Below are positions 9,563 through 9,635 of a stretch of 17,975 bases of DNA, piece by piece. The notes beneath the pieces were generated by a model, which saw only the letters and a program-made list of their open reading frames with translations, searched no databases and had not been told where the DNA came from. Each line of letters starts with the position of its first letter. Positions within the stretch are counted from its first letter, which is position 1. The stretch lies in contig JBMYYT010000022.1 of assembly GCA_049609665.1 (NCBI GenBank), positions 1-17,975 of the forward strand. Direction: 5' to 3'. The stretch comes from Flavobacteriales bacterium (GTDB taxonomy: Bacteria > Bacteroidota > Bacteroidia > Flavobacteriales_D > CAJJDF01). The position numbers and the translations under genes are program-made.

Positions 9563-9635
9563 TATTCCGTATAGGATTTGAACCTATAATCTCCACCGTA
9601 TAAGAGTGACGGCATAACCATTTGCCTAACGGAAC
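9563..9635 (-). tRNA. tRNA-Glu paralog with anticodon UAU, G1:U72
   Basis: Minus-strand RNA reads GUUCCGU-UA-GGCA-AAUGGUUA-UGCC-G-UCACU-CUUAUAC-GGUGG-AGAUU-AUAGG-UUCAAAU-CCUAU-ACGGAAU-A. It aligns position by position with the 10011-10084 Glu(UUC) gene: same acceptor, same variable loop, same 3' anticodon-stem strand. The anticodon loop is CUUAUAC instead of CUUUCAC. Confidence 0.55.

What the first reader, a model, noticed from the sequence alone, without database searches (positions are those of the whole stretch)
9563..9635. Glu-tRNA paralog whose anticodon is UAU (AUA/Ile-reading) on a Glu body
This gene and the 10011-10084 tRNA-Glu(UUC) share acceptor (GUUCCGU/ACGGAAU, G1:U72), variable loop and overall architecture. 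The anticodon loop is CUUAUAC rather than CUUUCAC.

In Bacteroidetes, AUA is normally read by a lysidine-modified CAU tRNA-Ile2. A UAU anticodon on a Glu-like scaffold is therefore either a decaying duplicate or a deliberately re-targeted tRNA. If charged with Glu it would misread AUA. If a substrate of IleRS it would replace the tilS-dependent decoder. It could also be a nuclease decoy.
Basis: seen in the sequence. Interest (0 to 1): 0.55.

Follow-up and report, generated by a model that had tools for sequence, protein, structure and literature searches.

The report
Glutamate tRNA copy retargeted to AUA
Within a mobile cluster of spare tRNA genes beside RNA-repair genes in a Bacteroidota-like bacterium, a duplicated glutamate tRNA has changed two anticodon letters and now most likely reads the common isoleucine codon AUA; this is a clear bacterial example of a known process (tRNA remolding), not a new kind of system.

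Summary
Window 9563-9635 (minus strand) encodes an intact 73-nt tRNA with anticodon UAU. Its closest relative anywhere is the tRNA-Glu(UUC) 450 bp upstream: identical acceptor stem and variable loop, 59/75 identity.

With the anticodon masked, home-made isotype HMMs rank its body as Glu (33-36.5 bits) over the phage UAU type (25) and Ile-GAU (19). The paralogs differ at 16 positions. Nine lie in stems, none breaks a pair, and three pairs changed on both sides. All 14 universal tertiary positions are canonical. This is not a decaying pseudogene.

The gene sits in a horizontally mobile long tRNA array flanked by RtcB, a PrfH-like protein, two RlaP genes and a Band 7 protein. Four orthologous arrays keep the Glu gene or lack it; none has UAU. 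UAU tRNAs are common in phages (at least 100 distinct), but none there has a Glu(UUC)-type body.

AUA makes up 28-46% of Ile codons here.

Best reading: alloacceptor remolding (Glu to UAU) produced a probably Ile-charged AUA decoder that does not need TilS. Charging, expression and the host's tilS and IleRS are untested, and the gene is known from one sequence only. It is a new variant of known kinds, of moderate interest.

The parts
9563..9635 (-). tRNA with anticodon UAU on a Glu-type body (the finding). Loop CUUAUAC, G1:U72, A73, C4:G69, 13:22 = A-U, T-stem AUAGG/CCUAU, no encoded CCA.
   Evidence: ARAGORN; Rfam 63.4 bits; cloverleaf and pair table; isotype HMMs.
10011..10084 (-). tRNA-Glu(UUC), the donor paralog. 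Same acceptor stem, variable loop and 3' anticodon-stem strand.
   Evidence: Orthologs with the same acceptor stem occur in L095 and L219, differing at 4-5 of 75 positions.
8769..10256 (-). tRNA array. Order on the minus strand: Ser(GCU) 10170-10256, Cys 10092-10164, Glu(UUC), Tyr 9922-10004, Ser(UGA) 9644-9729, UAU tRNA, interrupted Ile(GAU) 9436-9555, Leu(UAG) 9359-9432, Leu(UAA) 9174-9247, Arg(ACG) 9091-9162, interrupted Gln(UUG) 8949-9085, His 8872-8942, interrupted Phe(GAA) 8769-8865.
   Evidence: Orthologous arrays with a shared core order occur in L219, L220 and L222.
9436..9555 (-). Ile(GAU)-type tRNA gene directly downstream of the UAU tRNA, interrupted by a 46-nt insertion (9454-9499) in the T-loop after GGUUC.
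   Evidence: Alignment with the intact L222 Ile(GAU); coordinates; weak Rfam tRNA hit 9491-9553.
10295..10320 (-). Terminator-like hairpin (GGCACCUAAAUCAGGUGCC followed by a U run) between the ATP-grasp-like gene and the first tRNA. It suggests the array has its own transcription start.
   Evidence: Sequence; conserved in sister contig L095; coordinates.
8718..8755 (-). Terminator-like hairpin after the last recognisable array member (interrupted Phe).
   Evidence: 13-pair stem plus T-rich tail; conserved in L217.
10480..11280 (-). ATP-grasp-like protein next to the array. The family is widespread (237 genome loci) and lies inside or beside tRNA arrays in several lineages.
12969..14824 (-). 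Two RlaP (PF10127) nucleotidyltransferase genes, 12969-14021 and 14018-14824.
   Evidence: The same pair occurs upstream of the array in L219.
16501..17193 (-). RF-1 domain protein (PrfH-like).
   Evidence: An RtcB plus RF-1 pair also occurs in L218, L220 and L222.
17339..17956 (-). RtcB RNA ligase, C-terminal part (the gene runs off the window).
   Evidence: PF01139, E 1e-45.
6894..8000 (-). Band 7/SPFH protein at the other border of the array. It holds the same position in L218-L222, and a Band 7 gene also lies in the L032 island.

Best explanation
The gene is an alloacceptor-remolded tRNA. A tRNA-Glu(UUC) gene of a horizontally mobile long tRNA array was duplicated. One copy gained two anticodon substitutions (U35A, C36U), giving UAU. 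That copy then diverged faster than the Glu orthologs while keeping a perfect cloverleaf.

Shown: common origin with Glu, an intact structure, membership of the array, high use of the AUA codon, and absence of a UAU tRNA from related arrays.

Inferred: it is transcribed with the array and charged with isoleucine by IleRS. Supporting points are that the anticodon dominates identity for both IleRS and GluRS, that A73, C4:G69 and U36-A37 are present, and that the Glu-type 13:22 pair is lost. It would then read AUA by U34:A pairing without lysidine, that is, independently of TilS. It would supplement the host's single TilS-dependent tRNA-Ile2, possibly mainly when the array is induced under translational stress, as shown for the Anabaena L-array.
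For: 1. Origin. Identity to the array's Glu(UUC) is 59/75, with the same acceptor stem and variable loop. The 13 nearest bodies among 230 tRNAs are all Glu(UUC), including three (L029, L033, L032) found through a protein anchor and so independent of any DNA pattern. The Glu isotype HMM wins by 8-11 bits over the phage UAU type and by 14 bits over Ile-GAU. An anticodon-free pattern of this arm returned only UUC genes in the viral and metagenome collections.

2. Structure under selection. There are 16 differences from the paralog, 9 of them in stems. None breaks a pair, and 13:22, 50:64 and 51:63 changed on both sides. Random expectation is 5e-6 for any substitution and 0.02 for transitions only. 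All 14 universal positions are canonical. The Rfam score is 63.4 bits against 60.2 for the parent.

3. Faster divergence on the UAU branch. Glu orthologs of the window, L095 and L219 differ from one another by 4-9 of 75 positions. The UAU copy differs from each of them by 14-17.

4. Compatibility with Ile identity. A73, C4:G69, G1:U72 and A37 are the most common states among 99 phage tRNA(UAU). C38 occurs in 13% of those and in 42% of array and phage Ile(GAU). The 13:22 pair is non-Watson-Crick in all 15 Glu relatives and A-U here.

5. Demand. ATA is 28% of Ile codons (22.7 per 1000) in the flank genes and 46% (32.3 per 1000) in the island genes. The array holds no CAU tRNA, and its Ile(GAU) gene is interrupted.

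6. Context. The layout matches L-arrays: mobile, with neighbourhoods enriched in RNA-processing genes such as rtcB. In Anabaena the array is induced by translational stress and 23 of its 26 tRNAs are charged (PMC8421152).

7. Precedent. An unmodified UAU anticodon decodes AUA in M. mobile and in B. subtilis tilS-deletion suppressors (PMC3575796, PMC3919564).
Against: The gene is known from this one sequence. The sister contig L095 ends before the position, and the orthologous arrays L219, L220 and L222 lack it. So there is no conservation or covariation evidence specific to the UAU copy.

Three neighbouring genes of the array are interrupted and its distal end is degenerate, so parts of this array are decaying.

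IleRS with Trp at the wobble-recognition site charges UAU poorly: E. coli IleRS is 360-fold worse than with LAU (PMC3575796). The host's IleRS type is unknown.

Of the E. coli Ile identity elements, A38, U12:A23 and C29:G41 are absent (C38, C12:G23 and A29:U41).

An unmodified UAU can misread AUG. A9 and U50:A64, which at first looked specific to the UAU copy, also occur in the sister Glu gene. I therefore make no claim that the T-stem was re-tuned for EF-Tu. Expression and aminoacylation were not and could not be tested.
Confidence: 0.55

Rival explanations
1. It is a non-functional or poorly functional by-product. A recent duplicate of tRNA-Glu picked up anticodon mutations in an accessory array that is itself eroding. 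It is transcribed but not efficiently charged, and will be lost.
For: It is a singleton, absent from L219, L220 and L222. Three array members are interrupted by a repeat element and the distal array is degenerate. In Anabaena 3 of 26 L-array genes are pseudogenes. C38, C12:G23 and A29:U41 do not match E. coli Ile determinants. Many IleRS enzymes handle UAU poorly.
Against: No pair is broken after 9 stem substitutions, and three pairs changed on both sides. Universal positions are intact. It has the second-best tRNA model score in the window. It has diverged more than the Glu orthologs yet kept its structure, which is not what neutral decay predicts.
Confidence: 0.2
2. It has a non-translational or protective role. 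It could be a decoy or sponge for anticodon nucleases, or a substrate or partner of the adjacent RNA-repair machinery, without contributing much to decoding.
For: The array is embedded in an RtcB / PrfH-like / RlaP island, and related islands also carry Ro60 and an RNA ligase. The L-array paper raises the sponge idea.
Against: Nothing links the UAU anticodon to a known nuclease target. A decoy for attacks on Glu tRNA would be expected to keep the UUC loop. The change gives exactly a sense anticodon for a heavily used codon.
Confidence: 0.1
3. It is a mistranslating tRNA that keeps Glu identity through its acceptor stem and body, or is charged by MetRS, and so inserts Glu or Met at AUA, perhaps as stress-induced mistranslation.
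For: The acceptor stem, discriminator and most of the body are those of the array's Glu tRNA. Aberrant acid-gel mobility of some Anabaena array tRNAs raised the possibility of misacylation there.
Against: U35, a major GluRS determinant in E. coli (from my own knowledge), is replaced. The Glu-typical non-Watson-Crick 13:22 pair is lost only in this copy. MetRS depends on C34 (from my own knowledge). AUA is 23-32 per 1000 codons, so systematic AUA-to-Glu misreading would be very costly. No mistranslation was detected in Anabaena.
Confidence: 0.05

Closest known systems
tRNA-Ile2/Ile3(UAU) of Mycoplasma mobile and other bacteria lacking tilS (Taniguchi et al. 2013, PMC3575796; 17 genomes listed in tRNAscan-SE 2.0, PMC8450103)
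   Same: UAU anticodon reading AUA without lysidine; A37 after U36; A73.
   Different: Those tRNAs descend from tRNA-Ile(CAU) by a single wobble change, are the only AUA decoder in genomes that lost tilS, and work with an adapted IleRS (Arg865) and ribosome. This one has a Glu-type body, needed two anticodon changes, sits in an accessory mobile array, and the host's tilS and IleRS status is unknown.
Bacillus subtilis tilS-deletion suppressor tRNA-Ile1(GAU to UAU) (Kohrer et al. 2014, PMC3919564)
   Same: A new AUA decoder created by anticodon mutation of an existing tRNA gene. U34 is unmodified and AUG misreading is low.
   Different: That was a shift within one isotype (Ile to Ile) by one substitution, selected in the laboratory. 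This is a natural shift between isotypes (Glu to UAU).
Phage-encoded tRNA(UAU) genes (IMG/VR contigs L097-L216)
   Same: UAU anticodon within mobile tRNA sets. A73 is the rule (90%), and G1:U72 and C4:G69 are the most common pairs at their positions (34% and 38%). The loop CUUAUAC occurs in 13%.
   Different: Their bodies are the generic AGCUCA D-arm type shared by Ile, Met, Lys and Arg. Median identity to the window tRNA is 0.57 and the best is 0.69. None is nearest to a Glu(UUC) body.
Alloacceptor tRNA remolding / anticodon shifts (Sahyoun et al. 2015, PMC4783518; Rogers and Griffiths-Jones 2014, PMC3923123; yeast mitochondrial tRNA-Thr derived from tRNA-His, PMC3113583)
   Same: Gene duplication plus anticodon substitution gives a tRNA closer to another isotype family in its own genome than to tRNAs of the same anticodon elsewhere.
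   Different: The documented cases are mainly in mitochondria and eukaryotic nuclei, and most need one substitution. This one is in a bacterial mobile tRNA array, needed two, and the donor gene is retained.
L-arrays: long, horizontally transferred tRNA gene arrays (Santamaria-Gomez et al. 2021, PMC8421152; Tran et al. 2016, PMC4758250)
   Same: Dense same-strand tRNA genes without a fully encoded CCA in most members, patchy distribution among relatives, neighbourhood rich in RNA-repair genes including rtcB, and some pseudogenes.
   Different: L-arrays are reported mostly to add redundant isodecoders rather than new anticodons. This array carries an anticodon (UAU) that bacterial genomes rarely encode, made within the array by remolding.

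Membership tests
Canonical elongator tRNA (Rfam RF00005) | Score above the family's gathering threshold with a full-length match | tested here: met
   63.4 bits against a threshold of 29, model positions 1-71 of 71.
Canonical elongator tRNA (Rfam RF00005) | Cloverleaf with 7/4/5/5-bp stems and the universal tertiary nucleotides (U8, A14, G18, G19, A21, U33, R37, G53, U54, U55, C56, A58, C61) | tested here: met
   All 21 pairs are standard and all 14 positions are canonical.
Bacterial tRNA-Ile(UAU) as in M. mobile | UAU anticodon in a 7-nt loop with U33 and A37 | tested here: met
   Loop CUUAUAC.
Bacterial tRNA-Ile(UAU) as in M. mobile | Body of the Ile family, derived from tRNA-Ile(CAU or GAU) | tested here: not met
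   Isotype HMM scores: Glu 33-36.5, phage UAU type 25.2, Ile-GAU 19.3 bits. The nearest neighbours are all Glu.
Bacterial tRNA-Ile(UAU) as in M. mobile | Aminoacylated with Ile by an IleRS able to recognise U34 | not testable with these tools
   The host IleRS is not in the window and no assay is possible. A73 and C4:G69 are present; A38, U12:A23 and C29:G41 are absent.
Bacterial tRNA-Ile(UAU) as in M. mobile | Genome lacks tilS and tRNA-Ile2(CAU) | not testable with these tools
   Only 18 kb of the genome is available. No CAU tRNA occurs in the window.
Alloacceptor-remolded tRNA | [quoted passage not shown] | tested here: met
   0.81 to the same-array Glu(UUC), against a best of 0.69 and a median of 0.57 for 100 phage tRNA(UAU). 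It ties for the top of 2,847 cross-isotype same-locus pairs.
Alloacceptor-remolded tRNA | Anticodon substitutions on an otherwise conserved donor scaffold, with functional structure retained | tested here: met
   U35A and C36U; no pair broken; three pairs changed on both sides.
Alloacceptor-remolded tRNA | Replaces a lost ancestral tRNA of the new specificity (the classical mitochondrial definition) | tested here: inconclusive
   The array's Ile(GAU) gene is interrupted, but that is a different anticodon. The host's tRNA-Ile2 cannot be examined.
tRNA-Glu | UUC or CUC anticodon | tested here: not met
   The anticodon is UAU.
tRNA-Glu | Non-Watson-Crick 13:22 pair, part of the 'augmented D-helix' GluRS determinant of E. 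coli tRNA-Glu (from my own knowledge) | tested here: not met
   A13-U22 here. All 15 Glu relatives have U.G or A.A.
L-array (long horizontally transferred tRNA array) | Dense run of same-strand tRNA genes far beyond what gene accretion would give | tested here: met
   10 intact and at least 3 interrupted tRNA genes lie within 1.5 kb, with more degenerate copies downstream. The array is shorter than the 20-gene 'array unit' criterion of Tran et al.
L-array (long horizontally transferred tRNA array) | Patchy distribution among relatives, consistent with horizontal transfer | tested here: met
   Of 80 loci with the ATP-grasp-like neighbour, only 8 carry arrays, and the closest relatives carry none. 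Among Band 7-anchored relatives, arrays are present in L219-L222 and absent in L218.
L-array (long horizontally transferred tRNA array) | Neighbourhood enriched in RNA-processing and RNA-repair genes (rtcB) | tested here: met
   RtcB, an RF-1/PrfH-like protein, two RlaP genes and a metallophosphoesterase in the window. The same holds in L032 and L218-L222.
L-array (long horizontally transferred tRNA array) | Silent in normal growth and induced by translational stress | not testable with these tools
   No expression data are available.

The most novel reading that the evidence does not exclude
The array and its RtcB/PrfH/RlaP island form a self-contained emergency decoding kit. The Glu-derived UAU tRNA was selected because it restores AUA decoding without TilS or lysidine when the host's single tRNA-Ile2, or its modification, is knocked out by a toxin, a phage or stress. 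On this reading a mobile element extended the host's anticodon repertoire by remolding one of its own genes, and the class-I-length UAA and UAG 'Leu' tRNAs are part of the same design for A-ending codons.
Probability: 0.15. Interest if true: 0.65.

Novelty: new variant of a known kind. Interest (0 to 1): 0.4.

Why it matters
AUA is the one sense codon whose reading in almost all bacteria depends on an essential modification enzyme, TilS, acting on a single tRNA. Natural UAU decoders are documented in only a handful of reduced genomes and always derive from Ile tRNAs.

This case shows a different route. A mobile tRNA array made an AUA-type anticodon from a spare Glu gene through two substitutions, and the structure stayed intact afterwards. 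If the tRNA is charged with Ile, three things follow:
- It is a natural bacterial example of a switch between isotypes, which is otherwise documented mainly in organelles and eukaryotes.
- It shows that accessory tRNA arrays can add decoding capacity rather than only redundancy.
- It provides a compact scaffold for TilS-independent AUA decoding, which is relevant to attempts to reassign AUA.

If it is not charged, it is only a snapshot of the birth and death of tRNA genes in these arrays.

Tried and rejected
1. Phage origin of the window. Megablast against 50,697 phage records found nothing. The flanks are chromosomal genes of Bacteroidota type, including a T9SS sorting domain, Omp85 and PHO4.

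2. Looking for the same UAU tRNA elsewhere.
- An anticodon-free exact pattern of its arm in viral contigs and metagenome contigs returned only Glu(UUC) genes.
- blastn of the 74-nt gene against phages and plasmids gave only T-arm-level matches.
- 80 genome loci anchored on the ATP-grasp-like gene had no UAU tRNA.
- Relatives anchored on Band 7 (L217-L222) had none.
- The sister contig L095 ends about 600 nt too early.

3. EF-Tu re-tuning. I first thought the T-stem changes at 50:64 and 51:63 were specific to the UAU copy. The sister Glu gene already has U50:A64, and L031's Glu has A51:U63, so I dropped the claim.

4. Direction of the changes at positions 27/28. The states are shared in conflicting ways among L219, L029 and L095, so the timing of the duplication relative to the species splits is unresolved.

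5. L217, the 92-93% identical relative, as evidence that the array can be absent. The contig has 2.6x coverage and a GC-rich, unrelated first 600 bases, so it may be chimeric and I did not rely on it.

6. The interrupting motif as a known ribozyme or intron. A permissive Rfam scan of 8000-10500 found no ribozyme or intron family. The motif occurs in both orientations and is absent from the other arrays. It remains unexplained.

7. IleRS type of Bacteroidota. The literature search did not settle it, and my recollection that they use the IleRS2 type is untested.
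Full report
**1. The observation**

ARAGORN finds ten tRNA genes on the minus strand between 8871 and 10256, among them 'tRNA-Ile (tat)' at 9562-9635. Rfam's tRNA model matches 9563-9635 over its full length with 63.4 bits, the second-best score in the window and above the 60.2 bits of the neighbouring tRNA-Glu(UUC) at 10011-10084. Both programs, and the thermodynamic centroid, give the same cloverleaf with the 7-nt loop CUUAUAC and UAU at positions 34-36. No competing fold offers a different triplet.

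All 21 stem pairs are standard. All 14 universally conserved positions checked are canonical: U8, A14, G18, G19, A21, Y32, U33, R37, G53, U54, U55, C56, A58 and C61.

**2. Paralogy with tRNA-Glu**

The two genes share 59 of 75 aligned positions, while no other class I pair in the array exceeds 59%. The acceptor stem (GUUCCGU/ACGGAAU, with G1:U72), the discriminator A73, the variable loop AGAUU and the 3' strand of the anticodon stem are identical.

There are 16 differences:
- Nine lie in stems and none breaks a pair.
- 13:22 (U.G to A-U), 50:64 (C-G to U-A) and 51:63 (G-C to A-U) changed on both sides.
- Three C/U changes lie opposite G in the anticodon stem.

Random sets of nine stem substitutions keep all pairs in 5e-6 of trials, or in 0.02 of trials if only transitions are allowed. 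This is the signature of a structure kept under selection, not of a decaying copy.

**3. Is the body really a Glu body?**

I could not run tRNAscan-SE's isotype models, so I built substitutes.

- Nearest neighbours. With the anticodon masked, the 13 closest of 230 tRNAs from all loci fetched by then are all Glu(UUC), at 0.81 to 0.67. Three of them (L029 0.78, L033 0.75, L032 0.73) came from a protein-anchored search and so do not depend on any DNA pattern. None of the seven Ile(GAU) genes appears in the top 30. The control works where comparable sequences exist: Ser, Tyr and Glu each find their own isotype.
- Profile HMMs per isotype, with the anticodon masked in both training and query. Scores are Glu 36.5, Asp 26.3, Met 25.7 and phage UAU type 25.2 bits. 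After removing every locus fetched with a pattern taken from this tRNA, scores are Glu 33.0, Asp 29.3, phage UAU type 25.2, Met 23.9 and Ile-GAU 19.3.
- Pattern scan. The pattern CTTNNACGGTGGAGATTNNNGGTTC leaves positions 35-36 free. It hit 3 viral and 10 metagenome stretches. All 12 for which ARAGORN called a gene at the match are Glu(UUC), mostly in tRNA arrays of 185-245 kb phage contigs. This scan needs an exact match, so its reach is limited.

The mismatch between anticodon and body is therefore real, and the direction is from Glu to UAU.

**4. What the UAU copy changed**

Against 13 distinct Glu(UUC) relatives, the copy is unique at nt 35, nt 36, nt 22 and the 50:64 pair. The change at nt 22 turns the U.G or A.A 13:22 pair of every Glu relative into A-U.

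The 50:64 state, and A9, turned out also to be present in the Glu gene of the sister contig L095. Those two are probably ancestral, and I make no claim of EF-Tu re-tuning.

Glu orthologs of the window, L095 and L219 all carry the same acceptor stem and differ from one another by 4-9 positions. The UAU copy differs from each by 14-17. So most change happened on the UAU branch, with structure preserved throughout. That pattern is what a copy taking on a new function would show.

The U13.G22 pair and U35 are major GluRS determinants in E. coli tRNA-Glu (from my own knowledge, not tested here). Both are gone.

At positions relevant to IleRS, the tRNA has A35, U36, A37, A73 and C4:G69. It lacks A38, U12:A23 and C29:G41. 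In 99 phage tRNA(UAU), A73 (90%), C4:G69 and G1:U72 are the most common states. C38 occurs in 13% of them and in 42% of array and phage Ile(GAU). Nothing in the sequence argues against Ile identity.

**5. Genomic context**

The window is AT-rich, at about 32% GC.
- Positions 211-8000 carry chromosomal genes of Bacteroidota type: a T9SS sorting-domain protein, Omp85, PHO4, LemA, DUF3137, a beta-lactamase-fold protein and a Band 7 protein.
- On the other side of the array lie an ATP-grasp-like gene, an unknown 395-aa protein, two RlaP nucleotidyltransferases, a metallophosphoesterase, a TPR protein, an RF-1 domain (PrfH-like) protein and RtcB.
- Terminator-like hairpins at 10295-10320 and 8718-8755 bracket the array.

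The layout matches 'L-arrays'. These are long, horizontally spread tRNA arrays found patchily in Bacteroidetes, Cyanobacteria, Planctomycetes and other phyla. Their neighbourhoods are enriched in RNA-processing genes such as rtcB. In Anabaena the array is silent until translation is stressed, and 23 of its 26 tRNAs are charged. According to that study, L-arrays mostly add redundancy rather than new anticodons (PMC8421152).

The association recurs in independent lineages:
- In Emticicia agri (L032) the array is interleaved with an RNA ligase, the same ATP-grasp family, an Endonuclease V-like gene, Ro60, Band 7 and RtcB.
- Relatives anchored on Band 7 (67-72% identity) show RtcB, PrfH-like or RlaP genes, then an array, then Band 7.

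**6. Conservation of the UAU gene**

None could be shown.
- Of 80 genome loci with the ATP-grasp-like neighbour, eight have arrays and none has a UAU tRNA.
- The orthologous arrays L219, L220/L221 and L222 share a core order (Leu-UAG / Leu-UAA, Arg-ACG, Gln, then His and Phe in L220/L221). Orthologs are 0.73-0.91 identical to the window's in L219, the closest of them. None has UAU.
- L219 has its single Glu(UUC) next to a Ser(UGA) remnant just upstream of Leu(UAG). That is the neighbourhood where the window has Ser(UGA) and the UAU gene, and L219 lacks a Glu between Cys and Tyr. This hints that the UAU gene may be the original Glu locus and the Cys-Glu-Tyr copy the duplicate. The gene order differs, so this stays a hint.
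- The sister contig L095 (neighbouring protein 81% identical) begins Ser-Cys-Glu-Tyr like the window but ends before the relevant position.
- L217 is 92-93% identical from Band 7 outward but loses similarity at about window position 8814. It is a 2.6x-coverage contig with an unrelated GC-rich end, so I did not use it.

**7. How unusual is it?**

A UAU anticodon alone is not exotic in mobile tRNA sets.

Their bodies are of the generic AGCUCA D-arm type. Their nearest non-UAU neighbours are mostly Lys(UUU), Met(CAU), Arg(UCU) and Ile(GAU), and none is Glu(UUC). Identity to the window tRNA has a median of 0.57 and a best of 0.69.

Among 43 UAU tRNAs that sit with at least three other tRNAs, the window's has the closest same-locus partner (0.81; next 0.75). 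Among 2,847 cross-isotype same-locus pairs, only one other pair, Arg-UCU/Lys-UUU in L116, reaches 0.81.

In cellular bacteria, tRNA-Ile(UAU) has been reported for 17 genomes lacking Ile2(CAU) (PMC8450103). Those arose from Ile tRNAs by a single wobble change (PMC3575796).

Disagreement between isotype model and anticodon is a recognised category, covering up to about 5% of predictions. Alloacceptor remolding is well documented in mitochondria and eukaryotic nuclei. So this is a new variant of known kinds, not a new kind.

**8. Likely mechanism**

AUA is heavily used here: 55 of 196 Ile codons (22.7 per 1000) in the flank genes and 68 of 149 (32.3 per 1000, more than AUG) in the island genes, Fisher p = 0.001. 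The array has no CAU tRNA, and its Ile(GAU) gene, which lies directly downstream of the UAU gene, is interrupted by a 46-nt insertion in the T-loop.

The most economical reading is that the remolded tRNA is transcribed with the array, charged by IleRS, and reads AUA through U34:A pairing. No lysidine would be needed, so it would supplement the host's TilS-dependent tRNA-Ile2.

The steps differ in how well they are supported:
- Shown: origin, structural integrity, context and codon demand.
- Inferred from established identity rules: loss of GluRS recognition and gain of IleRS recognition.
- Not shown: expression, charging, the state of U34, and the host's tilS and IleRS.

The main risk is that IleRS enzymes with Trp at the wobble-recognition site charge UAU poorly (360-fold in E. 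coli), and that UAU can misread AUG on ordinary ribosomes.

**9. Rivals**

- A poorly functional by-product of array turnover (0.2). Support comes from its singleton status and the visible erosion of neighbouring genes. Its perfectly kept structure argues against this.
- A decoy or repair-related RNA (0.1). Only the context supports this.
- Glu or Met mischarging (0.05). The lost Glu determinants and the cost of misreading a codon used 23-32 times per 1000 argue against it.

**10. Verdict**

Novelty is 'new variant of a known kind' and interest is moderate (0.4).

The most novel reading still open is that the array evolved a TilS-independent AUA decoder as part of an emergency translation kit linked to RtcB/PrfH repair. 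I give it a probability of about 0.15.

Noticed in passing
window 9436-9555, 8949-9085, 8769-8865 (minus strand); inserts 9454-9499, 9049-9072, 8967-9007, 8784-8812: Three array genes are orthologs of intact Ile(GAU), Gln(UUG) and Phe(GAA) genes in L219, L220 and L222, but are interrupted by 24-46-nt insertions. The T-loop inserts lie right after GGTTC in Ile(GAU) and Gln and replace part of the loop in Phe. Gln has a second insert in its D-loop. All share a motif (CCTGAGC-N4-GTCGAAGGG) that occurs six times in the array, three in each orientation. It is absent from the other arrays and is seen elsewhere only in the close relative L217. No Rfam ribozyme or intron family matches. It may be a small site-specific mobile element or a recombination site.
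   Followed up: partly
window 8949-9085 (minus strand): In the interrupted Gln(UUG) gene, the D-loop insert and the T-loop insert are complementary. They are predicted to pair into a long helix projecting from the tRNA elbow (MFE -47.5 kcal/mol, z = -4.2, 0 of 200 shuffles as stable). This could be a structured tRNA-like RNA rather than a plain pseudogene.
   Followed up: partly
window 9252-9331 (minus strand): Just downstream of Leu(UAG) lies a second copy of its T-arm and 3' acceptor strand (an 18/18 repeat, 9254-9271 = 9358-9375). This copy carries the repeat motif in its T-loop and ends in an encoded CCA. It looks like a footprint of insertion or recombination at the T-loop.
   Followed up: no
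window 8325-8429 (minus strand): A tRNA-like gene has an internal tandem duplication of its D-arm plus anticodon arm (8354-8386 against 8388-8420, 85% identical). The 5' copy has loop CUUCUAA (UCU, Arg) and the 3' copy CUGAUAA (GAU, Ile), and they share one acceptor stem and T-arm. This is another sign that anticodon variants arise by local duplication in this array.
   Followed up: no
window 9174-9247 and 9359-9432; L219 8818-8891 and 8998-9072; L220 8857-8931; L222 8648-8827; L074 6149-6223: tRNAs with Leu anticodons UAA and UAG are only 74-75 nt long and have no long variable arm, unlike normal bacterial tRNA-Leu. They hold conserved positions in related arrays (0.78-0.91 identity for UAG), and short Leu(UAA) genes also occur in phage arrays (L088, L094). 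Together with UAU, all three read NUA codons. Which enzyme charges them is unknown.
   Followed up: partly
window 10480-17956; L032; L218-L222: A recurrent island pairs tRNA arrays with RNA-repair genes. These are RtcB, an RF-1/PrfH-like protein, TPR, a metallophosphoesterase and two RlaP genes in the window, with an RNA ligase, an Endonuclease V-like gene and Ro60 in L032. An uncharacterised ATP-grasp-like family (237 genome loci) sits inside the arrays of L029 and L032. A Band 7/SPFH gene marks the other border of the array in L218-L222.
   Followed up: partly
L218 8890-10001; L217 1-1325; window 4736-5869: Close relatives differ in what they carry. L218 has RtcB, RF-1, a 1.1-kb gap with no tRNA, then Band 7. 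L217 (92-93% identical) lacks the intact part of the array, lacks the beta-lactamase-fold gene, and carries an extra 110-aa ORF. L217 is low coverage and may be chimeric.
   Followed up: partly
window 8380-8483 (minus strand): A weak match to the Y RNA-like family YrlA (32 bits; gathering score 69) lies in the degenerate distal part of the array. It is of interest only because related islands encode Ro60 (L032). It may be chance.
   Followed up: no
window 9644-9729 (minus strand): The Ser(UGA) tRNA scores above the gathering threshold of Rfam's tRNA-Sec model (50.7 against 47), although its anticodon is UGA rather than UCA and it has the G73 typical of Ser. This is probably a model artefact for a divergent class II tRNA.
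   Followed up: no
window 10480-17956 against 211-8000: The island genes use ATA for 46% of Ile codons, against 28% in the chromosomal flank genes (Fisher p = 0.001). This fits a foreign origin for the island, or an adaptive match to the array's AUA decoder.
   Followed up: partly
window 9730-9921 (minus strand): A 192-nt stretch between Tyr and Ser(UGA) has no recognisable tRNA but several hairpins, such as CCCGAUAUAAAAUCGGG. Its content is unknown.
   Followed up: no
L116 (IMG/VR contig), Arg(UCU) and Lys(UUU) genes: This pair is 0.81 identical with the anticodon masked and differs by one anticodon base. It is another candidate for recent alloacceptor remolding within a phage tRNA cluster.
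   Followed up: no
window 11750-12937 (minus strand): A 395-aa protein with no family match appears to be made of two similar halves (the repeated motifs NEYFE...LIEGYF...NHP.NLD...KLYKDS.PEYP.RGMTL are visible in the translation). It sits between RlaP and the ATP-grasp-like gene.
   Followed up: no
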